A DNA stretch of 63,651 nucleotides, the filler included, from Vannella sp. (taxonomy: Eukaryota): NCBI GenBank assembly GCA_023345925.1. It is 8 parts of 8 records of this genome, joined end to end, with 100 filler letters (N's around TTAATTAATTAA, not from the genome) between each part and the next. Parts side by side here need not be neighbours in the genome. Positions count along the whole stretch, not along the records: positions 26,306 to 36,619 come from JAJQQN010000993.1; 7 more parts are not named here. The stretch is one strand, 5' to 3'. How positions within the stretch are numbered: the stretch's first letter is position 1; each line of letters starts with the position of its first letter. Position numbers and translations under genes: made by a program. The notes under the pieces are model-generated. The model searched no databases, was not told the origin of the DNA, and was given only the letters and a program-made list of their open reading frames with translations. This document shows positions 7,928-58,000 of the stretch, piece after piece.

Positions 7928-8122
7928 ATGTCATTCGTTGGTGGCCTGGTTCAAGGAGCGCTCATGGACTACTTTCTTGCCCTCCTCTATCTACTCATGG
8001 CTGCTATTGTGGTGAAGATCATCCACGGGAGTGTCACCAAGCAGTCTACCCACAGGACACCCAAGGAGATCGCTTCTGAGGTGAAGCAGAAGGTCAAGAG
8101 CAAGATCAAGAAGGCTGATTGA
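7928..8122 (+). CDS. Small (64 aa) single-pass membrane protein, unknown function
   Basis: ATG-initiated ORF with one hydrophobic helix (YFLALLYLLMAAIVVKII) and a Lys-rich tail. It fills an otherwise empty gap between genes. Confidence 0.55.
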   Translation: MSFVGGLVQGALMDYFLALLYLLMAAIVVKIIHGSVTKQSTHRTPKEIASEVKQKVKSKIKKAD

Positions 8123-8274
8123 TAAACACGCACACAGAGCCTTTCTATTGCTTCTTAACATCCACCTCTCCATGGAAGAGAGAGTTTCGCCCATTCGGTC
8201 ACTTCGCCACAGCGCAAACGAGGAAAGATTGGATCTCCAAGAGACCAGTGTCACCACGTTTCTCTCATACCACT

Positions 8275-11011
8275 CTATTTGGCCCTTTTAGGTTCTGGTG
8301 GCTTCGCCCACTCCTGATCTGAATAGAAGTGTACCAAAAGCGTAGTTTCTCTCCGAACGCGTCTTCCAACTGCGTTGCGGTTGGAAGTGATCCCACCAAG
8401 AGCACTCCTGTTCCCTTTGATGTCTCTCTTAAGAGCTACAAAGAAAACAATCTGTGGAATGAAGCTTTTAGGTGGTTTGAGGCTTAAGAAGAAGTGCCAC
8501 TTGCAAGAGCTTTTCCTCGCAAAGAATAGTTGCTCTTTGGGTGTCCAAAAGGGCTTGTAAAGTGAATGCATTCTCCGTGAGCGTCTCATTCAAAGTAGTG
8601 GAAGGACGATAAGAAAAGTCACTGGCAGAGTAGAAGATGCGAAGCGCTTGAGGTAATCGGACAATGACTTTTGGTGGTTTGAACTTTTGAACGGTTTGGT
8701 ACGGCAAATCGACCATTTTCAAGTGGTGGGTTGTCCGGAAATGATCGATGAGGAAGTTAGTGGAAAGCAGGGGATCTACAAACTCCATTTCTACTTCGGG
8801 TTGTGTGCGTCGGGGAAGACGGAGATAAGATTCGGCAAAGTGATGTAACAGCTTTTCTTCCTCTCCGAGAAGGGCGCAGCGAACCGAATGCTTCTTTACC
8901 ACTGCACCAGAGTCCTGTGCTTGGATGGAGTTTTGGAGAGATGCGAGCATAATGCTCGAGTAAAGCAACTGCAGTTCAGCAAACTGGTTACTGATGATCT
9001 CAAGGCGTGTCTGAAGCAGACTGACAGGCTCAAAACCATAAATAGGGCTTGTTCGACTTTGTCGGTCAACAACCAAGTTTGTTTTTCGGCCAATGTGCTG
9101 CGTGGCAGCGCCAACAATCATTCCAAAGACATCGTCTAAACGTCCCATTACTTCATTGCATACTTGCTTAAAGTGAAGCTCAATGCAACGCTCCAGTTCT
9201 TCTTCATAGCGAGGAGAAGTAGGATTCAACATTTCATCCGTATACCGCGGCATCTGTGACTGAGCCATGGCTATTCCCTCGATTGAGTGGAGCACAGGAA
9301 GTTTCAACTCTGGGAAGCAACCTAAAAGTTCATCAACCTGGGAACTACAAAGGAGCTTTCCAAACAGAAATCTCTCAGCAGTGAGTGTCAGCGGCTTATC
9401 AAACTCTTCGAAGATGCTCAGAAAGATGCCAGACGAAGACTCTGCACTTCGCTTGAATCCTGAAGTAAGACGTCGGATTCCTTTCTTGATTTTGCCGCCG
9501 GATCTTCGTTTGGACTGGGAGAGTGCGCTATGAAGTAGATTGCGTTGATTAACAAGGTGCTCGTGAAGAGCCAGCACGTAGGATTTTTTGCGGCTCCGGA
9601 TGACTTCCAAACCCTGCTCAAGAGCGTTAAGGTCGACTGGCTCTTCTGTGGACGAAAAGGTAGTTCCCATCTGCGTTTGGCTGCGTTGTATCTGCAATTG
9701 CTCTGACGTGCTTGTTAGCGCCTCAGAAACTCGGAGTAAACGGGCAGCTAAGTGCATTGTGAGCTGCGAAAGAAGCTGATTGAATCGTTTGACGATGAAG
9801 CGTGTGTCAATTCGATCGTAAATCTCATTCAGAAGAGACATTAACAAGGAGGCCTCCAATGAACAATCGCGCATAGCTTGAAGTCTCTTTTTCCGTTGCT
9901 TGCCGGCTACCATTCTCAGATAGCTGCTGAAAGGAATCAGTTCGTCTTCCTCTTCACTAGTTAGCTCTGCTTCAGAATCCTCTGAGGACTCAGAAGCGCA
10001 AGTGCTCCCTTCCTTATATCCTGGAGGAGTGAGGAAGCTCCCAACGTGTGACATGACCAAAGTATCCAGTCCCTTCTCAATATGCCGGCGTGTCCTCTTG
10101 TTGAAATGAGCGATTTGATACATATTGAGCAAGGAAATAGCAGGGAAGAATCTTTGATGAACAATCTGGCCCAGTCTTTGACGTTTTTCTTTGAGAATCC
10201 TGTCAATAGGAATGTTGTTCGTGGCGGTCAGAGCCTCGTCAAACTTTGTAATACAAACGACTCCATTTGGGCACCATTCTTCCAATGTGTGGATGTCATC
10301 AGAGATACTCCGGTCCATTTGCATGAAGGAAGTCAAGTAGATCCAGCCATGAAGGTTGCTATTCCGAAGGACTCTTTCAGTACGAATGTCACGCTGACCA
10401 CCTAAGAGATCTTCACCTTGCCCTGGAGTGTCCAAGATAGTAACTGATCGGAGAATAGGATGGTGAATAAAGAGCTTCACTTCTTTGATGAGGCGGCAAC
10501 GCATCGGAAAGCAGTTTGCCGCTGATTGGGACAAGAATTGGCAGAGAGACTGGTCGTTTTTTCGCTTGCTGAGTGAAGGATCGTTTTTCCAAGTGCAAGA
10601 GCCTTCCGGGAAGCTCTTGCAAATTCGATCATATTCCTTTGCAGCGTTGAGAAGATCAGATTCTACGCGCTCTTTACTCCTCTGAAGTCCCTTCCACTTC
10701 TCTTCACTAGACCAGTGGCTGTTAGGGCTATTTTGCTCCACAAGTAGGTCTTCTTTACAGAGATCCAGCTCTGATGTGAGTGTAGTAGCATCCATAACTC
10801 TCGACATCTCTGTTGATAGTGGGGATAACGTGTATGTTGCATGTGGTCCGCGCGGACTCTTAAAACTGAGTGCTGTGACCGACACACTTTCAGTGGTTTG
10901 GAGAAAGAACTTTACGGGGAACGTGCATCGCGTCGATTCCTCTTCGTCAGGATTCGTGGCCATCTTGAACTCTCCTTCAACATTATACGACGACCAGAGG
11001 ATTCCCTCCAC
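8275..11011 (-). CDS. Dynamin-like GTPase-fold protein, G1 P-loop not seen; 5' end uncertain
   Basis: 847-aa ORF with LIKEVKLFIHHPILRSVTILDTPG (G3) and VCITKFD (G4), followed by a helical stalk. A probable last exon reaches 8275 via an intron near 8465-8500. No GxxxxGKS in frame. Confidence 0.7.
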
Positions 11012-21405: not shown

Positions 21406-22143
21406 TTAGGGGATGGAAGCGACAAGTCTATCCACCAGATCGTGGAACTCTCGCATGCTTATTCGACCGTCTTTGTCGCCGTCAATGCTGTCAAACTCAA
21501 GCCCGATGGGTGTGCTTCTGAACTTGTAAGGAATCATGGAAGAGAAGAGTTGGAATTCCTCGGGAGACATGTCCAGCTGCCCATCCATGAACTGACATTG
21601 GGCTTGGAGCTGAAGAAGCAAGATCTTCTCTTGATTGCCAGTCACCTCCTTTGACTGATCAAGTAGGGTTGATTGCTTCTTTACACACTCCTTCTGTTCC
21701 TCTAGCGTCTCATTCAACGTTCCAATGACCTTGGTCATGTCCAGATTGTGGTCGCGCGCGTAGTTCTCCAGCGCCAGCTTCACGGCATCAAGCCCCTCCA
21801 GTGTGCCTCTCAAGCTTTCCAACTCTTGGCCAAACTTCTCATTCTCCTGCGCCAAAAGGTCTGAGACATCCTTGAGCTTGTTGTTCTGTGTTTGGAAGTT
21901 CTCAACGTTCTCGGCCAACCGAGTGTTCTCTTCAGTGAACTTCTCTACCTCTGCAGTGAGGGCTATTGTGGACGCCTCCAGTTGGTCTCCTGATGCCTTC
22001 AACCTGCCGTTCTCTCCCTGCAAAGCATCCACGCTCGACTTCAACCGTTTGTTCTCCTCATCAAAGCGATCCAGACGCTCCTGGAACGACTCAGGAGCGA
22101 GCAGGTGAGCTTCTTCGTCTGAAGTGAAGCAACAGAAGCCCAT
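21406..22143 (-). CDS. Coiled-coil plus C-terminal EF-hand protein, paralog A
   Basis: N-terminus MGFCCF, heptad repeats (EENKRLK, EENTRLA) and a canonical EF loop DGDKDGRISMRE. Confidence 0.85.
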   Translation of the reverse strand: MGFCCFTSDEEAHLLAPESFQERLDRFDEENKRLKSSVDALQGENGRLKASGDQLEASTIALTAEVEKFTEENTRLAENVENFQTQNNKLKDVSDLLAQENEKFGQELESLRGTLEGLDAVKLALENYARDHNLDMTKVIGTLNETLEEQKECVKKQSTLLDQSKEVTGNQEKILLLQLQAQCQFMDGQLDMSPEEFQLFSSMIPYKFRSTPIGLEFDSIDGDKDGRISMREFHDLVDRLVASIP

Positions 22144-22304
22144 CACCCTAAAAATGGCAGATATTACAATACAACAAACAAGCTCATTGACCCATTATGA
22201 CACAATAATTTCACAATAATGCCTCTTTTGGCCTTGAATGATCTCGATCTCCATACGGCGGTAACGGAGAGGACCGAGCTGTATTTCTATCTTGTTCTGA
22301 CGTG

Positions 22305-23042
22305 ATGGGAGCCCTTCTGTCATGCTTGTTCCCTGAACCAAAGGTTTCCATTGAAGACTTGGACCAGAGACTTCAGAAGTTTGATGAGGAGAACAAGAGG
22401 CTCCAAGAGAGCGTGGACACTTTGCATGCAGAGAACGACAGACTCAAAGGCATTGCTGACCAGTTCGAAGCGCAAACTCAGCAGCTTACTGAAGAAGTCA
22501 CCAAGTTCACAGAGGAGAACACCAAGTTGTCTGAGAACGTGTCTACTTTCCAAGAGCAAAACAACAAGCTGAAGGACCTCTCTGACCAACTCCATGAAGA
22601 GAACGACAAGTTCTCTCAAGAGCTGAAGAGTATGAGAAGCACCTTGCAAGGTCTTGAGACTGTCAAGCAGACTCTGGAAACCTACGCGAAGGAGAACATG
22701 CAAGACCTCGGCAACGTGATCAACTCTTTGAATGAAACCCTCGATGAGCAAAGAAACTGCGTGAAGAAGCAATCTGCTCTTCTGAAGCAGGCTAAGGCTG
22801 TCACTTCAAGCCAGGAGAAGATCTTGTTGATGCAACTTCAATCCCAATGCCAGTTCATGGATGGACAGATGGACATGTCCCATCAAGAGTTTGAGATGTT
22901 CGTACACATGATCCCCGCCAAGTTCCGCAACACTCCCGTCGGGCTCGAGTTTGATAGCATTGACGCCGACAAGGACGGAAAGATCAGCATGCGCGAGTTC
23001 CATGATCTGGTAGACAAGCTCGTCGCTACGATCCCCGAGTAA
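22305..23042 (+). CDS. Coiled-coil plus C-terminal EF-hand protein, paralog B
   Basis: N-terminus MGALLSC (myristoylation consensus MGxxxS), heptads and EF loop DADKDGKISMRE. Colinear with paralog A. Confidence 0.87.
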   Translation: MGALLSCLFPEPKVSIEDLDQRLQKFDEENKRLQESVDTLHAENDRLKGIADQFEAQTQQLTEEVTKFTEENTKLSENVSTFQEQNNKLKDLSDQLHEENDKFSQELKSMRSTLQGLETVKQTLETYAKENMQDLGNVINSLNETLDEQRNCVKKQSALLKQAKAVTSSQEKILLMQLQSQCQFMDGQMDMSHQEFEMFVHMIPAKFRNTPVGLEFDSIDADKDGKISMREFHDLVDKLVATIPE

Positions 23043-26305: not shown

Positions 26306-26466
26306 TCGATCATCATTCGCCCATCTTTACTCTCTTCCTCATCATCCTGCTCATCACGCGGCTTCAAGTTCTCCAACCAAGCCTCTTCTTCCTCAGCTAG
26401 ATCATCCTCATCGTCCAATTCCGGGCCAATGTAGTTGCCGAACTCATCATACAGCGTATCTTCCAT
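26306..26466 (-). CDS. EFTUD2: U5 snRNP 116 kDa GTPase (Snu114), N-terminus only
   Basis: MEDTLYDEFGNYIGPEL followed by an acidic tract is the diagnostic N-terminus. Truncated at the contig end. Confidence 0.92.
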
Positions 26467-26688
26467 AGCACCTGCAACTGTGCGTTCAATAACAAGAGGA
26501 ACTGTTGCCTCCCTCGGTTGGCAACCAAAGAATGACCCATTTTTCGACCAATGAGATGGGCGGAAACCGCATTTTCTGGAATCTGATTGGCTAATGGGGT
26601 AAACCCTTCTGGGCCTTCGTTTAGGTTGAGTGGGGATGGTTTATGGAGCAGTGGTCAATTGTATCATCAAAGGAAGTCAGGTGTACGC

Positions 26689-27884
26689 TCAGAGAGTGAT
26701 CAACTCTGTCAAGCAGGCAGGAAGGGGCGGGAAAAAGGCTTCCATTGGCAAGACCGCGTTCTCGGAGAAGAAGAGGAGCCCAATGCTGAGAGCACATGCA
26801 GTGGATAGCACATACAGCGATTCTGTGAAGGGAATGGAGTCTGCTAGGGCATTCTGTTTGGTCCACCACTTGGGGCTGTTCAAACGGAGGGATTGCCACC
26901 ACCGGAACGGTAGAACGGCACAGTACGACATGCGAACAATAGATGGCATGGGTACCTGAGGTACTATCAGGGCGTAGGTCACCAGAGTCAATGCGTTATG
27001 GATGTCGACCGCCTTCTCCTCCCCCACTATCACCACTGAGGTGATCTTACCGCCTTTAGCATCACCAAGGCGATCGGGTATGTTCATGACTATCATACGC
27101 AATGCACTGACAAGGAAGAAGGGAACAAGGCACTGAGCAAATGCGAGATCCAATCGTCCCCCTTGAATAAGTAGTCCCACGCCGGGGGTAGCAAACGTAA
27201 GGACTTGTCCAACGTTAGCTACAACACAAAGGAGCTTTCTTCTTACGTACCATACGAGACAGCGACCTCTCCAAGCCCGTTTGCAGAAAAGTGGAGTGGA
27301 GGAAGGGAGTAGGAGATGGCTACGAAGAGGACACTCCATCCCAAAAGCACGAAGTGCCAGGGAAACTGCTCAGAGACCATAACTGCGAGGACACGCGCTG
27401 GTGTGAGGAGAGAGACGAACTCGGCGATCCCTTCGGCTGCCAGAACTTCCTCAGGCAGCAGACCCGGAGTCAGACTGACGAAACGATACACCGTAACCAC
27501 ACCAGAGGCAAAGGCGATCACAAAGGTCACCGTACCGCACGCTGCTGCGACCCAGTTCGGGAGCCATCCTTTGGCCAGGACCTTCGATCCTCCTGTCCAC
27601 GAGGTGGCGTTCTGGTTCATACGGTCGACTTCTACATCAGCATACTCGTTCCAGAAGTGAGTCATCACGTGGGTGGTCCAGATTGTCAGCTGCAGAAGGC
27701 CAAACAGTGGCCAGTCAATCGACAAGCCTTGCTGCGAGGCGCCATACGCCACCCCGACCATGTGACATGCCAAGCTATACACCAGAAACTTGATACGGCC
27801 CAAACGGATGATCTTCATCAACACAGAAGCCTCTGCCCATCCGTCCTGGACTCTCTGAGCCTCGCCTTTGGTCGGCTTCTTCAT
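26689..27884 (-). CDS. UbiA-superfamily (MenA-like) integral-membrane prenyltransferase or UbiA-type terpene cyclase
   Basis: RLGRIKFL; first Asp-rich motif THFWNEYADVEVDRMN..WTGGSKVL; YSLPPLHFSANGLGE; second motif NIPDRLGDAKGGKITSVV; multiple TM helices. One 47-nt intron (27204-27250) restores the frame (..VSY/VLTF..). Confidence 0.92.
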
Positions 27885-27976
27885 AAGAATGAAGACTCTC
27901 CCTCATATCACCGATTGCACACCTCAGGGAGACGAATGGAAGCCCCCTTTTGGACATTTCCCCTTCCTTCGCCCTC

Positions 27977-29344
27977 ATGACGGAGGAGGTGGAGGTGGCG
28001 ATCGTTGGAGCGGGGCTGGGAGGCCTTTCTTTGGGTATAGCACTGAAGAAGATGGGTGTGAAAGGCCGAGTGGTGGTCTTTGAGGCGCGGGGCGATGCGG
28101 AGTGCGAGAGTGGGCAAGGAATGAGTGTCATCGGGCACTCATTAGTTCTCCTTCGCGAGCTGGGGCTCCATCTCCAGCAAGTAGGCGAAGCACAGAGTAA
28201 CATCAGCCTTAGAGCTGCTGCTAGAGCTAACCAGGTCCTCTATCAAGTCCCCCTGCAAGCTGACACCTCTCTCGCGGCAGAGTTCGAGAACACAGTCCAG
28301 TACAACGTGCAGCGAGGGGATCTCTTCCGTGAGCTGATCTCTCTATACAAGCTCAGCGGTGGCGAGCTACGGACGAACCATCGCCTCGCTGCTTTGGAGG
28401 TGGATCCGACAGGAGGACCTGTCCTTGCGCGGTTCGTTGGGGACATCGAGCCAGTGACATGCCATATGGTAGTAGGGGCAGATGGTGTCCATTCTGTTGT
28501 TCGCCGCTATGTCCTGGCCAAGTCCTGCAGCGATGTATTGAATGCTACCGCTGCTTCTCGCCAGTATCTTCGGGACAGTGGCTACAGCTGCTGGCGAGGG
28601 ATTCTAGAGGATACAGAAGAGATATCAAAGCCTCTTGGAGGCAAAGTGATGTTCAAGACAGTCGTCAGCCCAGCAGGAACTTCATTCACTTCCGGAACAG
28701 CCAAAAACAAGCGATTCTGGCTTCTTGATGTGTCCGGCACACGCCGTCCTCATACAAGAGCACTCGAACGACACCAAGGCACCGTTTTTGAACCAAAAGA
28801 CACTCAGGGCTCTGACCTAATCGAAGAGATTGTCTCGGCCATGGAAGGATTTGCACCAGAAATGATTAATGTGGTGAAAGCAACCGATCCAGCTTCCATT
28901 ATTACCACTGATGTGTTTGACGGCCGATTGAGCGCGTTGCGTCGGTCGTCCAATGGACGGCTGGTGCTGATTGGCGATGCGGCCCATCCTGTCGTCCATC
29001 ACTTTGGTCAAGGCGCGTGTACCGCCTTTGAGGATGCCATCGCCCTTGCGATGTCTGTAGATAAGATAGGAGTGGATCGGATAACAACATCAGCGCATCT
29101 AATGACTTTTGACTTTGATAGCTGGCCTCGATGGCTCAGATGTAGCGCCATTCTACTCCTCTCACGAACATGCGGGGCGTTATATATGAGCCATTGGACG
29201 GCAATCACTCACCCTTTCCTCACCATCTGCCTCAGCTGGCCAATGTGTGTGGCTTTCACTCTCCTCGTCCGACTTCTCCTCTTTGCTTGCGGTTCCCATC
29301 TGCGCCAGTTCGCTGTTGATCGCCTGAGGAAGGCGAGCTGTTAA
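27977..29344 (+). CDS. Group A FAD-dependent monooxygenase (hydroxylase/epoxidase) with a hydrophobic C-terminus
   Basis: VAIVGAGLGGL, VGADGVHSVVR (DG motif) and LIGDAAHPVVHHFGQGACTAFEDA (GD motif). C-terminal hydrophobic helices. Single exon. Confidence 0.92.
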   Translation: MTEEVEVAIVGAGLGGLSLGIALKKMGVKGRVVVFEARGDAECESGQGMSVIGHSLVLLRELGLHLQQVGEAQSNISLRAAARANQVLYQVPLQADTSLAAEFENTVQYNVQRGDLFRELISLYKLSGGELRTNHRLAALEVDPTGGPVLARFVGDIEPVTCHMVVGADGVHSVVRRYVLAKSCSDVLNATAASRQYLRDSGYSCWRGILEDTEEISKPLGGKVMFKTVVSPAGTSFTSGTAKNKRFWLLDVSGTRRPHTRALERHQGTVFEPKDTQGSDLIEEIVSAMEGFAPEMINVVKATDPASIITTDVFDGRLSALRRSSNGRLVLIGDAAHPVVHHFGQGACTAFEDAIALAMSVDKIGVDRITTSAHLMTFDFDSWPRWLRCSAILLLSRTCGALYMSHWTAITHPFLTICLSWPMCVAFTLLVRLLLFACGSHLRQFAVDRLRKASC

Positions 29345-29422
29345 ACCAAACTTGACTGACACTTTGTGACTCTTCCTGAGACTGGGCTGATCCTGGCGCG
29401 GCCAACTCCTGCAAAAGAGGGT

Positions 29423-31160
29423 TTATTCGATAGTGAGTCGCTGCATGATAAGTGAGTCCAACTCAGGAAGACCAGCAGAGGCTATTGTAGCTATGATATC
29501 ATCGCGAAGTCCAAGCAGGAAGGTTCGGGTGTAGGGCAGGGCTTCGGTGTCTGTAATCCACGAGCAGGCCTCATGAAGATCCTCGTCAGACAGCTCCTCT
29601 TCTCTCTCATACAGCGCCATCAGATCTTGATAGCGCCCCAAGCGCTGCCGGACCATATGAATGACTGGAAAGGAGAACTTCTTCTCGTGCAGGTCGTCAC
29701 AGAAACCCTTTTCCTCCCAGTAGGATTTGCTCGTCAGATTGATGTAATCATCACGCACCTGGAAGAAGACGCCAATTTGGTCAAACAGGTGGCAGATGGA
29801 ACGTTCTGTTTGGGATGGGAGTGACTTAGTCACTGTTGCGACTTCGATAGTGCGAACCGCATCACTGGAACGGTATCCGGAAGCAAGCGTTGGTGATTGG
29901 GACTTTGCTATTGAGTTCAAGTGGTGCTCCAGTGTAGCAGGAGCAATGATTGGCTTGAGTAGGAACATCCCAGCCCCCAGGAAACCCAAAAAGTTCAAGA
30001 AAAGGAGCATCCAGCGGAGAAGTACTTCGAACACTCTTTGCAATTGGAGGCGCCAATCGGAGCAATGAAGGAAGAAGAGAGCAGCAATCATGATAAAGGG
30101 AGTAGAAGTCTTACCCCGAATCATCCCGATGTACTCCTCCTCAGTGGGACAGTGCCGGTGGTCCCGCCAATAGATATCCAAGCCCTGCCCTTGGTGACCA
30201 GAGACGCACCCATGCAGCAAGAGCTCCCTTGACTTGTCATGGTGGTCACGGAACATGTGTGGCACCGAATCGAGCATCTTAAACATGCAAAGATACGCTG
30301 AATTGAGTGTGAGCGGCGTCCCGAACTCCAGGTACGCGCATTTCGAGTCTCTGCGCAACATGGAAGCGTCTTCGATATCATCAATGACCAAGGACACTTC
30401 GTGGACCCTCTCTACACAGTACTGCAACGACGCCAAGTCCCCAGGATCGATCCGGAAGTGTTTGGCGAGTACCAAGAAGCTCTGTCCCCGTACACCCTTG
30501 CCCTGTCGGTCAAACGTGTACATCATTGGATCAAGAAGGGCAAAGTCCACCAAATCGTCATGCCGATACGATCGGACATCTGTCGAGCCGGCTGGGTAGG
30601 CTCTGGGAGTGCTCTTGGCTGCTCGTTTGAGTTGTGAAGCAAGTGGACGGTACAGAGACGCTATCGTTGTCATATCATCGTCCAAGAGAGCCTTCTTTCC
30701 ATTGCTTGAAGCGAGAGAAGAGCGCAAGTCGTCCAGGGAGGCTTGATCAAGCGTGATCCATTGGCTGTGAGACTGTAAGAAGGAATCAAGTTGACTGTCA
30801 TTGAAGCACGCGAAGAAGAGGAAGTGGAAGCGGTCGCTCTTCTCTGGTAAGATGCTGACGAGCGCTGGAGCTTGATCCTGTGGAAGACCCGCATTCGTAA
30901 GCGTAGAAGTAGCTAACTGGAGTATACACGGAGTATCCAACGACACCTCCGATGCCACAGCAACCCCAAGAAGCTTCGCACCAGCATCCAACAACGTCAC
31001 CGGCTCCGAGTACTGTCTCAGAAGCACCCGCCCGCTCTCTGACACCACCAACACACTCAAGCGAACACCTTGTATCAACGTCTGCGTCAGGTATGGCCTC
31101 ATCCACAAGGGGATCAGTGTAATGCCCCAAAACCCTGCCAGCCCGCAGTTTTGAGGGCAT
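29423..31160 (-). CDS. Type III-like geranylgeranyl diphosphate synthase with an N-terminal Nudix/IDI-like extension and an internal hydrophobic insert
   Basis: GKGVR, FARM SLVIDDIEDASMLRR, GQGLDIYWRD, CPTEEEY..GKT, SARM FQVRDDYIN and KGFCDDLHEKKFSFPVIH. The start is either ATG 31102, or ATG 31160 via a putative 52-nt intron. Confidence 0.92.
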
Positions 31161-31238
31161 CCTTCTAGTCACTTCCAGGAAGTTCCTTTTTAATCAAAGA
31201 AGCTAGAAAATAGAGTAAAAGTAATTTTATTGGCTTTG

Positions 31239-32216
31239 ATGTGGTTGGCGGCTTTGGGTGTCGTCTTGGGGGTGCCGGGATGCTTGCTGGTGCGCTTGGC
31301 GTACCTCTTTGCGTTTCGGAACAGTGATAGGACGGTCTCGTTTGAGGAGAGTGTGGTGGATACAGAGTTGGAGACCCTGGCGACGGTGTCGGACATCGAT
31401 AATGACATTTATGATCGTTTGGCTCATCACTGGTGGGACCCTACGAAGGCCTTCTCTGCTGGCTTGCATGCCATGACACGCTTACGTGCTCCTGTGTTCC
31501 TGAACTACTTTGAGACCGTCCAGGGAAGCCTGGATAAGCGGCAGCAGCTCTGCATTGTCGATGTAGGTTGTGGAGGGGGCATTCTCGCCGAGGCTCTCGT
31601 TTGTGAAGCAAAGAAGAGAGGCTGCTGTGAGGTCTCCTTGATCGGTGTTGATCTAGCGGCTGGAGCGGTTCGAGCGGCTCATGAGCACGCTCAAGAAACC
31701 TTTGGCCCCTCCTCTGTTGCTGAGAACGGACGCAGTGACGAAGGAGTGAGCATAAACTACCGTGTAGGTAACGCTACTCGTCTTTCCTCTGCTGTTGCGG
31801 AGCACAGCGCTGACATGCTGGTGATTGCGGATGTTCTTGAGCATGTTCTGGATCTGCCTTCGGTGATGAGGGAGATCTCTCGAGTTTTGAAGCCAGGCGG
31901 TGTTCTTGTGTTTGATACTGTTAATAGGACAAGCCTAAGCTACATCATTGCCATTCTACTGGCCCAGGAGGTTCCATTCCTCAGCTTACTTCCATCACAC
32001 ACTCATGACTGGGCCTTGTTCCTTCGTCCTGACGAACTAAAACAGCTCTGCGAAGCCAATAGGCTACAACTAAAGTTCATAGAGGGATTTAGACCCTCTC
32101 TAGATGCTTCCTTGCTGAGAGGACTGCTTTTCCGAAGCTCATTGCATCGAATGTCGTTCACCACCTCCCCCGACCCTTCCGTTCAATACCTCGGATATGC
32201 TGTCAAGTCACTATAA
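31239..32216 (+). CDS. UbiG/Coq3-like SAM-dependent methyltransferase with an N-terminal membrane anchor
   Basis: IDNDIYD..HWWD..LHAM..R, VDVGCGGGILAE, DVLEHV, RVLKPGGVLVFDTVNRT, THDWALFLRPDEL and YLGYAVK. Hydrophobic N-terminus MWLAALGVVLGVPGCLLVRLAYLF. Single exon. Confidence 0.92.
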   Translation: MWLAALGVVLGVPGCLLVRLAYLFAFRNSDRTVSFEESVVDTELETLATVSDIDNDIYDRLAHHWWDPTKAFSAGLHAMTRLRAPVFLNYFETVQGSLDKRQQLCIVDVGCGGGILAEALVCEAKKRGCCEVSLIGVDLAAGAVRAAHEHAQETFGPSSVAENGRSDEGVSINYRVGNATRLSSAVAEHSADMLVIADVLEHVLDLPSVMREISRVLKPGGVLVFDTVNRTSLSYIIAILLAQEVPFLSLLPSHTHDWALFLRPDELKQLCEANRLQLKFIEGFRPSLDASLLRGLLFRSSLHRMSFTTSPDPSVQYLGYAVKSL

Positions 32217-32860
32217 ACTACACAAAAGACTGGAGTACAGAGCATCCAAGCATGGATGCCAAAAGACACATCTGGGAAGTGATATACTCCCTTCCCCTCT
32301 CCTGGCCGGCCCAGATAGGCACTCACACGGAAGACTTGTATGATCAATAGAAAGGCTATCTAGGCAGCTTTCGAGATAGCCTCATGAATGAAAGGGAACC
32401 AGAACGCCAAGAGTACTTTTTTGAAGAACTTGTGGGCTGGTGAAAGCTGGTTTACTGTGATTGTTCTAACCTTCCTGGAAAGCATGCAAGGGTGCTTTCC
32501 CATTGGGATGTGGTACCTAACTTCCACATTGCTTGCAAGCTGAGGAACCAAAGGATGAGGAGGACGGGATCGCTTGCATCGTCTGTGCGGAACCCCAATC
32601 CATCAATGAGGGAGCATTGCTGCTTGCAAGGACTGAGCTTGAACGCTGAAACAATGGAATGATTCCAGTCTCATCAAATGAGCCCATTGAAGAGTCGTTC
32701 GAACAATGACGTCCTCAAAAACACCTTTTTCAGGACAGAGAACCAAAAACGCGAGGAACTTGTCTTTCGAGTACCCGTTCGTCGCTTATAACATGAACTA
32801 GGGATCGATTCAAGCTGTATTTGAAAGGACATGTCTCGGTCAACAGGGACGGAGCCTCTA

Positions 32861-33490
32861 TCAGACGTTCATCAGCGGCCATGTGGAGTCGTCAGCATTA
32901 GAGTGGACGCTACTGAACAAGTCAGAACTTTCGCAGAAGCCCTCATACCAGTCGCTACCAGAAAGATCTGCAGAAGTTGGGTTTTGGTGCAGCTCTCCCG
33001 TGATGCTCTCTTCTTGAAGCGAAGAAGAGTCGAGAGGGGCCTTCGTTTCTTCGACACCCTTTTCACAGTAGAGAAACGTGAAGGTGGAGCAGGTCTGGAC
33101 CACACGGAGGTTCCACATCTTGAAAGAAGGCGGATGCATGGGAGCATGTGCGTTCTTGGTTTTGTTGGCTCGAGTATTGAGCTTCCGCATAACAACTGTT
33201 GTTGTTGCGTCAAGAACTACAGCGATTCTGGCATTGCATTGGCGCCATATCCAATGGTCCTCCTTTGGCAACTCATCAGCACTGACTGGGTCGTACGAGA
33301 AGCGGAAGAATCCAGAAGGGATCCCTTGTTGGGGTATCGGCTTGCTGTTGAGGATGTCTAAGTGTTTGGGCCAGTGATCGAGTAAGAACTGAAGAGTCCG
33401 CTTCTTTTCAGGTGACAAGTCAGAGACCATGACCTCCTTGGGCGTTGCCGCCCGACGAAGGTCATCCATCTGGAACATGACGATTGACAT
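32861..33490 (-). CDS. Hypothetical protein, possibly a transcription factor
   Basis: 209-aa ATG ORF with a globular basic/aromatic core and an acidic-aromatic low-complexity C-terminal tail. Confidence 0.6.
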   Translation of the reverse strand: MSIVMFQMDDLRRAATPKEVMVSDLSPEKKRTLQFLLDHWPKHLDILNSKPIPQQGIPSGFFRFSYDPVSADELPKEDHWIWRQCNARIAVVLDATTTVVMRKLNTRANKTKNAHAPMHPPSFKMWNLRVVQTCSTFTFLYCEKGVEETKAPLDSSSLQEESITGELHQNPTSADLSGSDWYEGFCESSDLFSSVHSNADDSTWPLMNV

Positions 33491-33800
33491 CGAACAGATG
33501 GTAGATGGGATGTACTGAATGACAACCTTCCGATTCTCTTGAGGTCCCTTTGTACAGCAAATCCTCAGCTTAATAACCGTTTCCTGTTGGAGATCAGATT
33601 CCCACAGACATATAAATGGCTATTTTATCAACGCAGTGATCCTGTGGCGCGTCGAGAATTAGGGTTAGGAAGGTGTTTAGGGTTTAAGGGTCATCGGAAG
33701 AGGAGTGTGTTGATGGAAAGGCCTATCAATCAGGGAAAGGCAGTTTCGATGCTGATAAACACGTCGACGTTATATCTCAAAGCTACTCAGGAAGGGGGGA

Positions 33801-35792
33801 ATGGTCGGGGAAAAGCTATCTCGAAGAGAAGGAGGTCATCAAGGACCACCTGAATCAACACGAGAGTCAGACGTTTGGGAGACCCTCTTGGCCCCTTCCT
33901 CGTTGGTTGAAAGAGAGAGGAGGGGAGGGGAGGACGGGAGGAGATCCTTTTTCTTGGAACACTTTCACGTCGTCCGCCATTCATGTCCGCATCCCTTTGG
34001 CAGAGCAGCCTCTTTAAGCCCTCTGCAGTCTTTGTAGCCTTTCCAGAGGTTGTAAAGAGTCGGAAAGAGGGGAAGGAGCCGGGGAAGAAGCGCTTCTTGT
34101 GGACTGGAGAGGAGGACGGAGTCTTCTCTCATCTGACTCATTGCCAGCGCTTCATGGGCAGCCATAGTGAAGGTAGGAGAGAGACCATACCCGTCAGGTT
34201 AACTTGTAACTCTTCATGAAGCCTTTCACTCCGGGGATCCCTCAGAATCACCCTGCACGAGGATTCTCTTATTGATAAGCATGTTGTACAAGACACTTTA
34301 CATTTCCTTTGAAGAGAAGTGTACTCTCAAAGACTTAGTGATGCAGAATGACCCGCGAGTGTACGCAACACTGGAGTTATTTGAAAGCCATCACACTCTT
34401 TATGCCTTCCAAGAAGACATTCGCCTCCTTCTCGATTCCCTCGCCAGCAGCACCGTTCAGGAAGCAGAGGACTGTATCACTAGCAGTCCGTTTTCTGTAG
34501 ATTCTACTGCAGTTCACATTCAGAGGACTGAATGGGTCCATTCAAAGTGGAAAGTGAATGTCAATTCACTTTGTCGGCAGGGACATCTTGAGTTGAAGAG
34601 GGTCGCCGCTCTTTCTCTTGAGAATTGTGTGGTCGTCATTAAATCAGGATGGCCTTCGCCAACAAACGATCGAGACTGGGAATGGAGCTCTTCGTCCGTT
34701 CCTCAACGCCTTCTGGAACTCCACAATAATGGGTTCGATATTCTCCTTCTCTCCTCCTTGGAGATTCCTTTATCAAGTGAAAGGTGAGAGAACTAAGACA
34801 GAGCCTCTGCTTAACCACTGAAGATCTACAGAAGCTATTCTCATCATGGCAAGGATCGAGTCAATAGTTGCTAGTTTGAGTGGAATCCCAATCTCTGCAG
34901 CCGTATCTATCAAAGAAGATTATGCAAAGATCCCTCAGACGGGTCTATGGGACCTGATGAAGGCCAACGCAGATCAAAGTCCCCAATTTTTTGTGGGATC
35001 TTGCGCTGGGAGACTCCAGGACTCCTCTGCAGCGGACCGCAAATTTGCATTGAATCTGAGAGTACCATTCTATACTGTAGAAGAGTTCTTCCTGCAGCAA
35101 AGACCACAAACGTATCACTTAGGGTTTACCCCATTTGCTTGGAATCTCTCTGCTGACTCTTCTCCTCTTTCTGCACACATTCCTGAGGATCTCAAAGACT
35201 CTGAGTGTTCTTTAGTCCTTCTTGTTGGCCTCCCTTCCTCCGGAAAGACGTGAGTTACCATCAGAATGTGAATTTCCTTGATGAGGGACATCTGACACTT
35301 CTGTAGATGGATTGGCCTTCAATTAGCCGAGGTAATGAAATGTTCGCTTGTGAACCTCAATCTCGATAGCTCAGAGTGCATGTTCGATCGTCTATCGTCC
35401 ATTGAGTTGATGCTTCAGAACAGTCAATCGGTTGTAGTGGAAGGGTCCTTTCCCTCTTTCCTTTCCCGCCAGCGACTCGTCACACTCACCAAGTCCCACT
35501 CTAAGAGATGCCATTGCATCTATGTGGATGTCTCCCTAGATCTAGCCTTGCACTTGAGCGCGTATCGAAACGTAAGAACCGCTTTCACCCTCACGCTTCC
35601 AACGCACTCATCCTCTTCAAGAAACTCTCCAACGGCATCATCCCTCGTGTTCCTATGTCTGATTATCTCGCTTTTCAACGCCAATTTCAAGCGCCCAGTC
35701 CTTTAGAAGGATTCTCTCATTCCTCGATTCCGTTTTTGCCCTTTTTCAGCTCCCAAGAGCGCAGGGCTGCCTTCCAGCAGTATTTCATTTAA
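33801..35792 (+). CDS. Degenerate polynucleotide kinase/3'-phosphatase (PNKP-like), multi-exon; 5' end uncertain
   Basis: DWEW..VPQRLLELHNNGF, KIPQTGLWD, FFVGSCAGR..DRKFALNLRVPFYTVEEFF, P-loop LVGLPSSGKT and FQAPSPLEGFS. Confidence 0.8.
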
Positions 35793-35906
35793 GAATCAGA
35801 TTGAAGTGCATTAGAGTGAAGAACTCTTTGGCGCTCGCCTTCATCGTAGAGCTCTGAACGTTGCTATTCGTATCTCATTCCACGTGTGTGGTGTATTCTT
35901 GTCGAT

Positions 35907-36619
35907 TTAGATGAGTTGGAAGCCATCTTTGATGCTCCAAGTGAGCTGGTTCTCGATTAGATTGGTCTCCCGAGCCTTGACCTTGCTCCCAGTGGCGTAT
36001 TTGTGGCCCGCAGCGAAGAGTGACTCCCAGAGAACCTTCTTGAAGACAGAGCCATTCTCATGGATGAGATCCAGCTCTACTCTATGAGGTATCTTCGTCT
36101 GAGGGAGTAACGAGGGAAACAGGAAGAGGTGGAATGATTCCTCCGGACTGGAAGGACATTGGAATGGGAGAAGTGAATGGAGACAGGTGTAAGAGGGATG
36201 GCGACGGGGCTTACTAAACTCAGAGAAGTAGAGCTGAGCCTGATTGCCTACCAAGGGCGTGATACGGAACGTGAAGCCGATGATGCGATGTTTGCGGAGG
36301 TTGTAAAGAGTGATTTGCCTCGATTTCCCCATCTTTTTGAATGTAAAGTCGCTCTTTCCCTCGAAGGGCCTGTGGATAGACCCCCTTTGCTGGCAAGTTA
36401 ACCTCACCCTCTCTTCCGGTGGAAGCGGGGTGCAGTTGTCCTCTGGAGTGGGGGGTGAGTCGTTCTGTTCAGAAGTGATATAGGTAGATTCAATCTGAGG
36501 CATTCCATCAGCAGACCTCTCGAAGCTGATCACTTGAAACTCGGGGAGAGCGCGGCGGGGATGCGTCATGTGGGATTTGAAAAAAATGTACCGGTCCGTC
36601 ACCATCATAGAAGACACAA
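35907..36619 (-). CDS. Hypothetical beta-rich basic protein, possibly 5' truncated
   Basis: 236-codon open frame that begins at the contig edge and converges on the PNKP-like gene. No recognised family. Confidence 0.55.
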
Positions 36620-55075: not shown

Positions 55076-58000
55076 TTATTCGATCGTCTTGGAGGGAGGG
55101 AGAGAGAGATTCTTTAATCTATCCAAGCGCACAATCACTTCAGAGAAAGAGGGACGAAGAGGAGCGTTTTCATCCCAGCAATCTTGGATCAAAAGTTGGA
55201 GTGGAGCCGGCAGCGCGCCCATGGCCGGACGAAGACCTTCCGAGATGATCTTGTACATGAGTTGTGCCTGGTTGAGAGGTAAATCACTGTAAGGAATGTT
55301 GCCAGAGTAGATCTCAAGAAGGAGAACAGCGAAGGAGTAAACGTCTGCTTTGGTGGAGTATTTGTCTTTGGTAAGCACTTCTGGCGCCATGTAAACTGGC
55401 GTACCAATGCAGGTCATCTTTGTTGTGTGGCCACTGATGGTGCTGATACCAAAGTCCGCGACTTTACATTCCCATTTCTCGTTGACCAAGAGATTCTGCG
55501 GTTTCAGATCTCGATGAATCAGATTGACAGAGTGCAAGTATTCCATTCCTTTTGCTGCATCTTTGGCAAGTTTCCAGCGCAGTTGCCAGTCAAGGTTTTG
55601 CCCTTTCCGATCGATAACGTCGCGAAGATTTCCGCGATGCATCAGCTCTGTCACCAAGTAAAGATTGGTCCCTCCAGGAGCGACACATATCCCTAAGAAC
55701 TCGGCAACATTCGGGTGCTTCAGCAAACTCATCAACTTGATCTCTGACAGAAACTCTTGTAAAGCTTCGTTACCCAAGTCATCAAAAGAGAGGAGAAGCT
55801 CCTTCACTGCCACTTCACGAGGAATGAGGCTTTCTGGAAGGGTCCATAAAGCCTTGTGAACCACACCCGAGGCTCCAACTCCGAGCCGTTCCAACAGTTG
55901 GAGATCAGAAAAAGGGATTTGGACAATAGACGGATCGAACAGGATATCTGGTTGTACATTTGTTAGCTCCTGTCGCAATAAGAAACAGACTTTTACCTTC
56001 TAAGGAGACTTGTGGCTTTCCATCTTGGAAATCAAGAATCTCTCTGCGCGTGAGAAGGTACATGGCACGCTGGCGTCTGTAACGCACTGTTGACACGATC
56101 AATACGATTCCAAAGATGCAAGCGATGACTGAAAGAAGCACAGCGATGACAATCTCCAAGATGTTTGTGGTAGAAAACTTGGGAGGGGGCACTTTTCATA
56201 ATGATTAGTCTAAAGGCTCAACAGTAAGAAGGATGACTTACCATAGGCACAAGTATCTTCCGCAATTCCAACTAATACTTCGTAGTTGGGAGGACAGTCA
56301 TTCATCTCCACATAGCATCCAAGCAAGGGAACGTTGTTTGTAGTATTCGATCTGGTCACCAGCAGAAGGCTGCAGTCTGTTCCATTCTTTCCTTGCAGCG
56401 CAATGCTGTTGAACTTGGCTTCTCCAGTCTCAGTTTCGTAGATTGCATTTGGGGAATCGTCGTCAGCAATCCAGCAAGGCTCGTCCTGCTTTGCATAGAG
56501 CCGGGCAACAAAATTGTACTTCTCAAGCAGCGGACCTCGCACTCGAGTCTGGAACGCGTCGGTCATGACCAATGAGATGCCAAAATGTGGCTGATTCAAG
56601 GTCAGAGTTGAGGGGCACGTTTCAACAAAGCTTGAGAGGACGGGCATTGTTGCAAATCCTTCCGTGGTGGCATACCCGACAGGATTCTGCATGCCAGGAG
56701 CTCCAAAGCTGCATTGGAAGCAAAAGTACGAAGAGTTTGCCGAGGTTGGAGGAAGCTCGCCATCCCATGTTGCAGGAGGAAGCGACCAGGCAGCGTTGTA
56801 TCCTCCAAATACTCCCGAATTTCCCTCAAACGAAGATCCGGACATCCACTGACGGAGGGAAGGGCTTAAATTGGACAAACTTCCCACAAACACTCCTCCG
56901 CCCAGTCCGTTTGCAACATTGTTGTGAATTGTGGCATTTCGGAAAGTAACAGAAGGAAGATGGTAAGCGGCATAATAGATTCCTCCTCCATACTTGGATG
57001 CTCGATTGAAGGAGATGTTGCAGCTGTCAAATGAAGTCCATCCGAAGCGCCTATCAAAGCCAATAGTCTCATCCCGATCAGCTTCAAAAATACTGCCAAT
57101 GTTGGGAGTCTCGATTTGAAGGTAAAGGCCTGCTCCCAGAAAGGCCTCATTTGAAAGGATGGAGCAATTGACACAGATGGAGCTATTCAGGAAGGAGAAA
57201 ATTTCCCCTTCAATGAACATCCCTCCTCCAGACGGTGCATGGTTCTCTGTGATCTCAAGATTGGACAAAGCGAGATGAGCTCCTTGGTAATAGATACCAC
57301 CGCCAGCAACGGATGCATGGTTGTTCATAAAGTGGCTGTTCGAGAAAGCTCCTTTTGAGAAAGTACCAGAATACAATCCTCCCCCGCCTGCTGCAGAGTT
57401 ATTGTAAAAGGTGCAGCGGTCAAGATTTACGATCACTTGATCTCTAATGATCATCCCACCTCCTTGCTCGTTCGCAGTATTGCCAGTGAGATGAATATCT
57501 TGAATGTCTGGAGTGCTGAGTCCAGCAAGGGTAATGCAGCCCCCTTCTCCTCCAGAGTGATTGTCCTCGCAAGTGAGAGATTCAATGATAGCTCTTGAGG
57601 TTCCGCCAACGTAAATCGCTCCGCCTGAAGTGGATGCGTTGTTCTTTCTGAAGGTACATCCAATGACAGGGGCCCACTCAGATATGATGTGAAGAGCCCC
57701 TCCTACGGGTGCTGTGTTCTCTTCGAAAACACACTTGTTGATGACAACTTGAGTGAAGTCAATGATTGACATCGCTCCTCCTGATCCAATGACAGCCTGA
57801 TTCTTCACAAAGGAGCAGTTGTTGAGGAACGCAAAGGCACGAACACACGCATGTAATGCTCCTGCTCCGGATTGCGCAGCGTTTTCAGAAAACAAACATT
57901 CATCAAACGTTGGAAACACAGAATCTGTGAGGTACAAAGCTCCTCCTCCCGTTGCATTATTCTTGGAGAAGGTGCAGCGAATGAATCGTGGAGTACAAGT

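What the first reader, a model, noticed from the sequence alone, without database searches (positions are those of the whole stretch)
26689..32216. Four-gene isoprenoid/meroterpenoid biosynthetic cluster in a protist: UbiA-type PT/cyclase + FMO + GGPPS + UbiG-like methyltransferase
Seen: four consecutive enzyme genes in 5.5 kb on a single contig, arranged as two head-to-head pairs (about 92 bp and about 78-136 bp between start codons). The inner genes converge 78 bp apart, the genes have 0-1 introns each, and an unrelated gene (EFTUD2) flanks the cluster. Established: GGPPS supplies C20 prenyl diphosphate; UbiA-superfamily enzymes either prenylate aromatic acceptors (MenA/UbiA/XimB) or cyclise GGPP (EriG-type diterpene cyclases); group A FMOs hydroxylate aromatics or epoxidise prenyl chains; UbiG-like enzymes O-methylate prenylated catechols. 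Inference: a dedicated, co-regulated pathway to either a geranylgeranyl-aromatic (quinone-like or meroterpenoid) compound or an oxidised, methylated diterpene, separate from mitochondrial CoQ synthesis. I do not know of this architecture being described from amoeboid protists.
Basis: partly seen in the sequence, partly recalled or inferred. Interest (0 to 1): 0.92.

Follow-up and report, generated by a model that had tools for sequence, protein, structure and literature searches.

The report
Conserved protist prenyl-quinone gene cluster
A single-celled eukaryote, likely an amoeba, carries four adjacent intact enzyme genes that likely build an unknown geranylgeranyl-aromatic (quinone-like) membrane lipid, probably separate from ordinary coenzyme Q, and genes of three of the same families also sit side by side in a distantly related choanoflagellate.

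Summary
The four genes are real, intact and physically linked: Logan contigs bridge every junction. They are a MenA/UBIAD1-like UbiA prenyltransferase (one 47-nt intron), a group A flavin monooxygenase, a 559-aa GGPP synthase and a membrane-anchored UbiG-like methyltransferase. (1) The GGPPS is a fusion: a degenerate IDI1/Nudix domain plus an inserted membrane helix. Its protist family is sister to giant-virus GGPPSs, apart from housekeeping GGPS1-type enzymes. (2) The linkage recurs: in Salpingoeca rosetta this GGPPS ortholog (PTSG_04558) follows a UbiA (04557) and an FAD monooxygenase (04556). The same UbiA clade abuts a related methyltransferase on another contig, and a bacterium fuses the two. 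(3) Bacterial UbiA relatives often sit beside HPPD (32 of 80 loci) and separate cyclases, which favours aromatic prenylation over cyclisation. Best reading (0.6): GGPP plus an aromatic acid, homogentisate being the leading guess, gives a hydroxylated, O-methylated geranylgeranyl-quinol. Co-regulation is only weakly supported. The product is untested. The 2013 S. rosetta annotation lists no COQ1/2/4/6/7, so a replacement respiratory quinone is possible.

The parts
27251..27884 (-). UbiA-superfamily prenyltransferase, exon 1 (ATG 27884); first Asp-rich motif NxxxDxxxD at residue 79 and YSxPP at 192
   Evidence: aligns with full-length relatives P0002-P0004 at 41-45%
27204..27250 (-). 47-nt intron, GTACGT..CTAAC..AG
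   Evidence: one of two candidates with a branch point, and the one that restores the family's SYVLTFATP stretch; allelic differences at 27241 and 27244 lie inside it; no RNA check possible
26689..27203 (-). UbiA exon 2; second Asp motif DxxGD at residue 255; whole protein 382 aa, multi-pass membrane
27885..27976 (.). 92-bp divergent gap UbiA/FMO
   Evidence: bridged by X1 contig
27977..29344 (+). Group A flavin monooxygenase, 455 aa; GxGxxG, DG and GD motifs intact; predicted C-terminal membrane segment (417-435)
29423..31102 (-). Long type III (GGPS1-like) prenyl diphosphate synthase, 559 aa; DDIED and DDYxN intact
30620..31081 (-). N-terminal Nudix-fold domain (residues 8-161), a degenerate type 1 IPP isomerase remnant without the catalytic motifs
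   Evidence: VIA-align Z 11.8, rmsd 4.1, 137 aligned to Nudix protein 3i9x; family member P0020 hits IDI1 (TIGR02150 2e-12; human IDI1 2e-9 with the CCSHP and GEHE motifs replaced)
29957..30013 (-). Predicted membrane helix (residues 364-382) within an insertion of about 80 aa in the GGPPS domain
   Evidence: present in 4 of 4 nearest relatives tested (P0010, P0012, P0013, P0014); P0012's cluster includes a transcript, so likely coding, not an intron
31103..31238 (.). 136-bp divergent gap GGPPS/MT
   Evidence: bridged by X1 contig, allelic indels at 31216-31224
31239..32216 (+). UbiG-like SAM O-methyltransferase, 325 aa, predicted N-terminal membrane anchor (3-21); non-canonical subfamily
26306..26466 (-). 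5' end of EFTUD2/Snu114, flanking eukaryotic housekeeping gene (not part of the cluster)
   Evidence: Pfam EFTUD2 2e-7

Best explanation
The four adjacent genes likely form a membrane-bound, non-mitochondrial pathway that would attach a geranylgeranyl chain to an aromatic ring and then hydroxylate and O-methylate it, giving a predicted short-chain methoxy-prenylquinol lipid. Shown: four intact linked genes, their families, intact catalytic motifs, the degenerate isomerase domain on the GGPPS, and recurrence of the linkage elsewhere. Inferred steps: (1) the membrane-tethered GGPPS makes a prenyl diphosphate, probably C20, next to the prenyltransferase, with the degenerate IDI domain perhaps a scaffold; (2) the UbiA enzyme C-prenylates a host-supplied aromatic acid, most likely homogentisate from tyrosine breakdown (about 0.35 within this reading; 4-hydroxybenzoate, a naphthoquinol or a polyketide resorcinol are the alternatives); (3) the flavin monooxygenase adds a ring hydroxyl (or epoxidises the chain); (4) the UbiG-like enzyme methylates that hydroxyl. 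The GGPPS-UbiA-FMO trio would be the core and the methyltransferase a lineage-specific addition. The likely role is a membrane redox or antioxidant lipid, or a defence compound.
For: Conserved linkage: in S. rosetta PTSG_04556 (FAD monooxygenase), 04557 (UbiA, best hit a DHNA octaprenyltransferase) and 04558 are consecutive, flanked by an unrelated phosphatase and kinase. PTSG_04558 is in the same GGPPS clade as the window gene (41% over 386 columns; 97/93). With 2 UbiA, 3 polyprenyl synthase and 7 FAD-monooxygenase genes among 11,629, chance is about 2e-6. L040 has a UbiA of the same eukaryotic clade (100/100) tail-to-tail with a methyltransferase of the same broad subfamily (35%) and an ABC1/UbiB kinase. 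P0255 fuses such a methyltransferase to a UbiA of the wider family; P0259, P0261, P0308 and P0342 fuse other methyltransferases to it. An ENA long GGPPS (P0014) and an ENA methyltransferase of the Paramoeba atlantica cluster (P0358) both list a longest contig of 94,998 bp (indirect). Of 80 bacterial loci, 32 carry HPPD and 32 a separate cyclase (tocopherol-cyclase-like 13, squalene-hopene-like 13, Pyr4-like 6), 26 both. All four proteins have predicted membrane segments, and none has an obvious mitochondrial presequence by eye. S. rosetta has HPPD and separate housekeeping GGPPS, FPPS and IDI.
Against: No product or activity is known for any member I could trace. The eukaryotic UbiA clade is not nested in the HPPD-linked bacterial clade: it sits on a long branch in an unresolved fork. 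The 80 loci were picked with a bacterial query, 67 are Actinomycetota, and 41 had none of my nine markers; one locus has a type III PKS instead. The sequences of PTSG_04556 and 04557 were not available, so their orthology to the window genes is untested, and gene order differs. No methyltransferase is adjacent in S. rosetta, and L040 (3.4 kb) shows no FMO or GGPPS. Of the 6 metagenome loci found, 4 hold a eukaryotic-type UbiA; L041/L042 have unrelated neighbours and L045 is too short. S. rosetta GGPPS does not co-vary with UbiA, and its gene model lacks part of the second Asp motif. FMO relatives were not surveyed by homolog search. Chain length is not shown (Val instead of Ala five residues before the first Asp motif).
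Confidence: 0.6

Rival explanations
1. The UbiA protein is a UbiA-type terpene synthase that cyclises GGPP; the monooxygenase and methyltransferase tailor the diterpene.
For: No acceptor-supplying gene lies in the cluster. Laurencia UbiA-type terpene synthases sit beside GGPP synthases and FMOs and carry the same NxxxDxxxD and DxxxD motifs, so motifs cannot exclude it (bioRxiv 10.64898/2026.10.28.762581). The long stem of the eukaryotic clade (1.06) allows a change of function.
Against: Bacterial relatives come with HPPD and with separate cyclases. The partner methyltransferase is UbiG-like, a family that acts on phenolic hydroxyls (established knowledge), and one is fused to this UbiA family in a bacterium. 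No characterised terpene synthase was in my trees.
Confidence: 0.15
2. The cluster makes the organism's own respiratory or vitamin K-like quinone (a plastoquinone-4- or MK-4-type molecule) in place of canonical coenzyme Q.
For: S. rosetta's 2013 annotation lists only two UbiA-family genes (PTSG_04557 and COX10) and three polyprenyl synthases (GGPPS, PTSG_04558, FPPS). It has no entry for COQ2, COQ4, COQ6, COQ7 or UbiG/COQ3 signatures, yet keeps a UbiE/COQ5 gene, five ABC1 kinases and complex I. L040 places an ABC1/UbiB kinase beside UbiA and MT. The only UbiA in PDB matched by the clade's profile is UBIAD1 (E 0.0098).
Against: S. rosetta expression is low and cell-type-biased (UbiA 5-46 FPKM, FMO 3-8), not housekeeping-like. 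No mitochondrial presequences are evident. A bacterivore could take quinones from prey (inference). The absence rests on an automated annotation, searched with InterPro numbers I recalled plus word searches. PTSG_02816 is labelled a demethylubiquinone methyltransferase. The window's own genome could not be searched.
Confidence: 0.13
3. The core trio is a pathway, but the methyltransferase is an unrelated neighbour (or acts on another product).
For: No methyltransferase flanks the S. rosetta trio. Short divergent gaps are common in this genome.
Against: UbiA-MT adjacency in L040, the bacterial fusion P0255, and the shared 94,998-bp contig length for GGPPS and MT.
Confidence: 0.07
4. The genes are divergent canonical COQ1, COQ2, COQ3 and COQ6 that happen to be clustered.
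For: The four activities parallel the CoQ pathway. The MT passes the UbiG model cut-off (135.5 against 102.95).
Against: The synthase is GGPS1-type (1e-43) not decaprenyl-type (1e-7). No 4-hydroxybenzoate prenyltransferase model was hit by 3 of 3 full-length UbiA relatives. The FMO scores 53 against 225 bits for the UbiH/COQ6 model. The MT falls outside the canonical UbiG clade (no COQ3 in that tree).
Confidence: 0.03
5. Chimeric assembly, or a bacterial or viral insert.
For: Low-coverage metagenome. The GGPPS clade is sister to giant-virus enzymes.
Against: All junctions are bridged. There is a spliceosomal intron, EFTUD2 is next door, GC is 52-55% against 48-55% for eight other window ORFs, and nearest relatives are protist transcripts. 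Viral GGPPS genes had no UbiA, MT, FMO or IDI neighbour in 39 of 39 loci.
Confidence: 0.02

Closest known systems
Laurencia UbiA-type terpene synthase clusters (bioRxiv 10.64898/2026.10.28.762581; parts 1-3 of 4 read, supplements closed)
   Same: Eukaryotic cluster of UbiA + GGPP synthase or FMO, same Asp motifs, UbiA of apparently foreign origin.
   Different: No methyltransferase; haloperoxidases instead; confined to one genus, whereas this core spans an amoebozoan-type genome and a choanoflagellate; sequence relationship untested.
Homogentisate prenylation in tocotrienol/plastoquinone synthesis (MGGBQ; described in PMC9235831, part 1 read)
   Same: UbiA + GGPP on an aromatic acid; bacterial relatives of this UbiA sit with HPPD and tocopherol-cyclase-like genes.
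   Different: Scores 21-30 bits against 226 for the homogentisate phytyltransferase model; no cyclase in the cluster; O-methyltransferase and FMO instead of C-methyltransferase; non-photosynthetic host.
Actinobacterial and cyanobacterial phenolic-lipid clusters: Actinoplanes alkyl-O-dihydrogeranyl-methoxyhydroquinones (title seen in a reference list; enzymes recalled), Streptomyces srsABC (passages), hierridin hid (passages)
   Same: Methyltransferase + flavin hydroxylase, sometimes + UbiA, making methoxy-hydroquinone membrane lipids; one bacterial locus of this UbiA family has a type III PKS (L150).
   Different: Built around a type III PKS, which is absent here; the prenyl donor synthase is not a fused, membrane-tethered GGPPS.
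Fungal meroterpenoid clusters with UbiA + GGPPS + FMO epoxidase + Pyr4-type cyclase (recalled, no call)
   Same: Same three core enzyme classes; FMO with C-terminal membrane segment.
   Different: No PKS and no Pyr4-type cyclase in the cluster; different UbiA branch.
UBIAD1/MenA menaquinone-4 synthesis
   Same: Nearest solved UbiA (E 0.0098); uses GGPP at ER-type membranes (established knowledge).
   Different: Far below MenA model cut-offs (at most 62 against 277 bits); partner is an O-methyltransferase.
Dictyostelium DdTPS8-CYP521A1 cluster (PMC6524965, abstract only)
   Same: Precedent for a terpenoid gene cluster in an amoeba.
   Different: Two genes, class I terpene synthase + P450, volatile product.

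Membership tests
UbiA superfamily | Multi-pass membrane protein with NxxxDxxxD and DxxxD motifs; PF01040 | tested here: met
   Motifs at 79 and 255, five hydrophobic stretches; PF01040 on both exons and above cut-off for full-length clade member L040 (79 bits)
MenA / UBIAD1 | Scores above curated MenA models | tested here: not met
   Exons 23 bits or less against cut-offs of 264-555; full-length relatives at most 61.6 against 277; TIGR00751 18.8 against 102; UBIAD1 E 0.0098
COQ2 / UbiA 4-hydroxybenzoate prenyltransferase | Match to 4-HB polyprenyltransferase models | tested here: not met
   None among the 13-14 NCBIfam families hit at E<=0.01 by 3 of 3 full-length relatives
Homogentisate prenyltransferase (plant/cyanobacterial) | Score above NF009525 | tested here: not met
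   20.6-30.3 bits against 226; 'works like' rests on gene context only
Homogentisate prenyltransferase (plant/cyanobacterial) | Prenylates homogentisate | not testable with these tools
   Needs assay
UbiA-type terpene synthase | Groups with characterised fungal, bacterial and algal synthases | not tested
   No reference sequences were available from any tool; preprint supplements closed
UbiA-type terpene synthase | Cyclises prenyl diphosphate without acceptor | not testable with these tools
   Needs assay; motifs do not discriminate
Type III GGPP synthase (GGPS1-like) | DDIED, GQG and DDYxN motifs; fold | tested here: met
   human GGPPS E 1e-43
Housekeeping GGPS1 orthologs | Groups with cellular GGPS1-type sequences | tested here: not met
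   Long clade 97/93, joined to giant-virus enzymes 100/99 and 96 under LG+C20; 55 and 41 rows, subsets of the 89; long-branch attraction not excluded
COQ1 long-chain prenyl synthase | Closest to decaprenyl/solanesyl synthases | tested here: not met
   Decaprenyl synthase 1e-7 against GGPPS 1e-43; solanesyl model 33 against 383 bits
Type 1 IPP isomerase | Nudix fold | tested here: met
   Z 11.8, rmsd 4.1, 137 aligned, residues 8-161; single-sequence model was unusable (pLDDT 44)
Type 1 IPP isomerase | Catalytic Cys and Glu motifs | tested here: not met
   Replaced in P0020, unrecognisable in the window protein; which residues are catalytic is recalled
Group A flavin monooxygenase | GxGxxG, DG, GD motifs; FAD_binding_3 | tested here: met
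COQ6 / UbiH | Score above TIGR01988 | tested here: not met
   52.9 against 224.65 bits
UbiG / COQ3 | Score above TIGR01983 | tested here: met
   135.5 against 102.95 bits
UbiG / COQ3 | Groups with canonical UbiG/COQ3 | tested here: inconclusive
   Outside the canonical proteobacterial UbiG clade in a 91-row FastTree, but no COQ3 sequence was included
Eukaryotic biosynthetic gene cluster | Adjacent non-homologous enzymes with conserved linkage | tested here: met
Eukaryotic biosynthetic gene cluster | Co-expression | tested here: inconclusive
   S. rosetta UbiA-FMO Spearman 0.71 (p 0.047, n 8), both listed as up in attached cells along with 1,410 genes in all; GGPPS-UbiA -0.17
Eukaryotic biosynthetic gene cluster | Joint product | not testable with these tools
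   Needs heterologous expression

The most novel reading that the evidence does not exclude
Bacterivorous protists across two supergroups (amoebozoans and choanoflagellates, including the model S. rosetta, whose annotation shows no canonical coenzyme Q pathway) make their own non-canonical short-chain quinone with this cluster, using a membrane-tethered IDI-GGPPS fusion shared in ancestry with giant viruses; it would be an unrecognised eukaryotic electron-carrier pathway.
Probability: 0.13. Interest if true: 0.95.

Novelty: new variant of a known kind. Interest (0 to 1): 0.76.

Why it matters
Gene clusters for small molecules are barely known in heterotrophic protists. A three-gene core kept together in an amoebozoan-type genome and in a choanoflagellate implies selection on a shared product. 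S. rosetta makes it testable at once, since it is genetically tractable (recalled) and the UbiA gene rises about five-fold in attached cells. It also gives a first handle on a UbiA subfamily with no characterised member that I could trace, and on a new enzyme architecture (degenerate isomerase + membrane-anchored GGPPS). If the apparent lack of canonical CoQ genes in S. rosetta holds, the cluster bears on what quinone the closest relatives of animals respire with.

Tried and rejected
No whole genome is held, so COQ genes and a housekeeping GGPPS could not be sought in the host. No RNA holder was listed. X4-X7 held only small shares; X4 and X6 gave a few 151-nt near-identical pieces and X5 none. 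Viral scans with UbiA alignments found nothing, nor with the L040 kinase, so L040's origin is open. The first genome scan, with eukaryote-specific patterns, found nothing. The viral MT hits were mostly canonical ubiG. A viral cluster origin was rejected for want of partners in 39 loci. The GGPPS insertion as a retained intron was rejected (conserved, transcript-supported). A bidirectional-promoter argument was given little weight. Folding the N-terminal domain alone failed; Foldseek listed only GGPPS domains. My first ORF clustering of bacterial loci was swamped by spurious high-GC frames and was redone. Support labels may be displaced by re-rooting, so the UbiA and GGPPS supports I quote come; the MT tree was not redone. 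Atlas answered only for the FMO (generic group A hits). Plasmid neighbourhoods were uninformative on substrate. HPPD-UbiA co-expression in S. rosetta is not significant (Spearman 0.40). Ten literature searches found no description of this cluster or of PTSG_04557/04558 in main texts; subscription journals are mostly not covered. The myxobacterial alkylpyrone paper was not held. Six look-ups of earlier findings gave nothing relevant.

Full report
Observation. The window is a string of eukaryotic contigs joined by N-linkers; the finding lies within one, 26306-36619. All four genes are there with the stated spacing. The UbiA gene needs one 47-nt GT-AG intron with a branch point to give 382 aa, and its two exons align end to end with full-length relatives. 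Logan contigs from three runs of one study bridge each junction, and allelic differences fall in the intron and the GGPPS-MT gap. These runs may be the source of the window. The only sequencing-run search listed no RNA holder. Short divergent gaps are normal here: 55, 106 and 161 bp in the three other pairs measured.

Host. No genome is held. Nearest named relatives are amoebozoan transcripts: Pellita catalonica for UbiA and Vannella robusta and Paramoeba atlantica for the methyltransferase. A discosean amoeba is therefore likely but not shown by marker genes.

GGPP synthase. It is GGPS1-type (human enzyme E 1e-43) but 559 aa long. A search returned 116 proteins, of which the top 14 share the long architecture or its insertion; they include Salpingoeca rosetta PTSG_04558, two Choanoeca species and Abeoforma. 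The N-terminal domain folds like a Nudix protein (Z 11.8, rmsd 4.1, 137 residues). In family member P0020 it is recognisably type 1 IPP isomerase with the catalytic motifs replaced. An insertion of about 80 aa carries a hydrophobic helix in the window protein and 4 of 4 close relatives tested, but not in P0016, P0018 or P0020. In ML trees the long family (97/93) joins giant-virus GGPPSs (100/99; 96 under a mixture model), apart from cellular GGPS1-type enzymes. Long-branch attraction is not excluded, and none of 39 viral loci had the partner genes.

UbiA. Both Asp-rich motifs are intact. A profile search found 2,822 representatives at E<=0.001 and listed 150. Eleven sequences including the window's form a clade (100/100) on a long stem, in an unresolved fork with mostly bacterial-type MenA-like proteins (50 of 121 rows). 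It reaches no curated cut-off for MenA or homogentisate phytyltransferase, and no 4-HB prenyltransferase model was hit. UBIAD1 is the only UbiA-family PDB match. The best 80 of 427 bacterial loci show HPPD in 32 and a separate cyclase in 32, both in 26; 41 had none of nine markers and one had a type III PKS. Five of six HPPD neighbours tested pass the 4HPPD cut-off. These loci are mostly actinomycete and are not the eukaryotic clade's closest kin, so they show what the wider family does, not the substrate here. Five of 15 long representatives are fused to methyltransferases, one (P0255) to a UbiG-like one.

Monooxygenase and methyltransferase. The FMO is a group A enzyme with all three motifs and a C-terminal hydrophobic segment, nearest to aromatic hydroxylases and far below the COQ6/UbiH cut-off. 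I did not survey its close relatives. The MT passes the UbiG cut-off but belongs to a protist clade, mostly with an N-terminal hydrophobic segment, inside a broad subfamily outside canonical UbiG; no COQ3 was in that tree.

Conserved linkage. In the supplements of PMC4054682 (rows of files 2, 4, 5, 10, 11, 12; passages of the text), PTSG_04556 is an FAD monooxygenase, 04557 a UbiA protein whose best hit is a DHNA octaprenyltransferase, and 04558 the long GGPPS; 04555 and 04559 are a phosphatase and a kinase. With 7, 2 and 3 such genes among 11,629, chance adjacency is about 2e-6. Orthology is shown only for 04558. A metagenome scan gave 6 loci. L040 (3.4 kb, 20% GC, no introns seen) has a clade UbiA tail-to-tail with a related MT and beside an ABC1 kinase; L041/L042 have unrelated neighbours; L045 is too short; L043 and L044 are bacterial, with HPPD and a methyltransferase next door. 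P0014 and P0358 share a longest-contig length of 94,998 bp, an indirect hint of GGPPS-MT linkage in a Paramoeba-like genome.

Expression. In S. rosetta, UbiA (log2 2.47, p 5e-7) and FMO (1.10, p 0.027) are up in attached against colonial cells, among 1,410 thecate-upregulated genes. They co-vary (Spearman 0.71, n 8). The GGPPS follows the housekeeping GGPPS (0.86), not UbiA (-0.17). Co-regulation is thus partial at best.

An unexpected absence. The same tables list no COQ2, COQ4, COQ6, COQ7, UbiG/COQ3 signature or long-chain prenyl synthase for S. rosetta. They do list UbiE/COQ5, five ABC1 kinases, HPPD, IDI, FPPS, a second GGPPS and one unlinked gene labelled demethylubiquinone methyltransferase. 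This rests on a 2013 automated annotation and on InterPro numbers I recalled, backed by word searches. One literature search on it found nothing.

Mechanism. Taken together, a membrane-tethered synthase likely feeds GGPP to a UbiA enzyme that prenylates a host-made aromatic acid, after which the FMO hydroxylates and the MT O-methylates, giving a methoxy-geranylgeranyl-quinol (0.6). Homogentisate is the leading acceptor because of the bacterial gene context and because a host with HPPD needs no clustered supply gene; this step is inference. A terpene-cyclase role (0.15) has a precedent in Laurencia. A substitute respiratory quinone (0.13) is the bold reading.

Novelty. Each enzyme class is known, and UbiA + GGPPS + FMO clusters are known in red algae (read) and fungi (recalled); an amoebal terpene cluster is known from Dictyostelium. 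Ten searches found no report of this cluster, the UbiA clade or the isomerase-GGPPS fusion; the library lacks most subscription journals, and the preprint's supplements could not be seen. I rate it a new variant of a known kind, interest 0.76.

Noticed in passing
S. rosetta annotation tables (PMC4054682 supplements 4, 5): No COQ1/2/4/6/7 or UbiG/COQ3 signature is listed although complex I, COQ5 and ABC1 kinases are; possible loss of canonical coenzyme Q synthesis in a choanoflagellate.
   Followed up: partly
L105, L118, L120-L122, L125, L136, L141-L143, L145, L149, L151 (UbiA near 8001-9100): Streptomycete clusters of HPPD + O-methyltransferase + UbiA + tocopherol-cyclase-like gene, often with a polyprenyl synthase: candidate bacterial tocochromanol-type pathway (13 of 80 loci).
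   Followed up: partly
L085, L090, L095, L097, L103, L108, L114, L123, L124, L126, L134, L140, L144: Actinomycete clusters of HPPD + UbiA + polyprenyl synthase + squalene-hopene-cyclase-like gene + flavoenzymes: candidate homogentisate meroterpenoid pathway (13 of 80 loci).
   Followed up: partly
L074, L131, L137-L139, L148: UbiA directly followed by a Pyr4-like membrane terpene cyclase in a myxobacterium and actinomycetes; five also carry a dehydroquinate-synthase-like gene.
   Followed up: partly
L040:168-3183: AT-rich (20% GC), intronless contig with ABC1/UbiB kinase, clade UbiA and UbiG-like MT; giant virus or AT-rich protist, unresolved.
   Followed up: partly
L155:9968-11029: A UbiA of the wider family lies on a conjugative, transposase-rich plasmid of Candidatus Megaera polyxenophila, an endosymbiont of protists (host range recalled); a possible route of transfer.
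   Followed up: no
L126: A MAG labelled Melainabacteria holds a locus with the same gene families and order as actinomycete locus L090; probably misbinned.
   Followed up: no
P0133: A methyltransferase labelled as the haptophyte Dicrateria rotunda groups among Vannella-type sequences; probably an amoebal contaminant of that transcriptome.
   Followed up: no
window 32861-33619 (-): ORF without Pfam match just downstream of the cluster; several diverged copies appear in the laid contigs, so it is likely a multi-copy family.
   Followed up: partly
window 21406-23042: Two near-identical coiled-coil, EF-hand proteins with MG-starting, Cys-rich N-termini arranged head to head (inverted duplication).
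   Followed up: no
window 34203-35706 (+): Polynucleotide kinase 3'-phosphatase gene on the same contig, marking the right-hand housekeeping context.
   Followed up: no
window 55076-59885 (-): Receptor-like kinase with beta-helix/PMP-repeat ectodomain, of a type I recall as common in amoebae.
   Followed up: no
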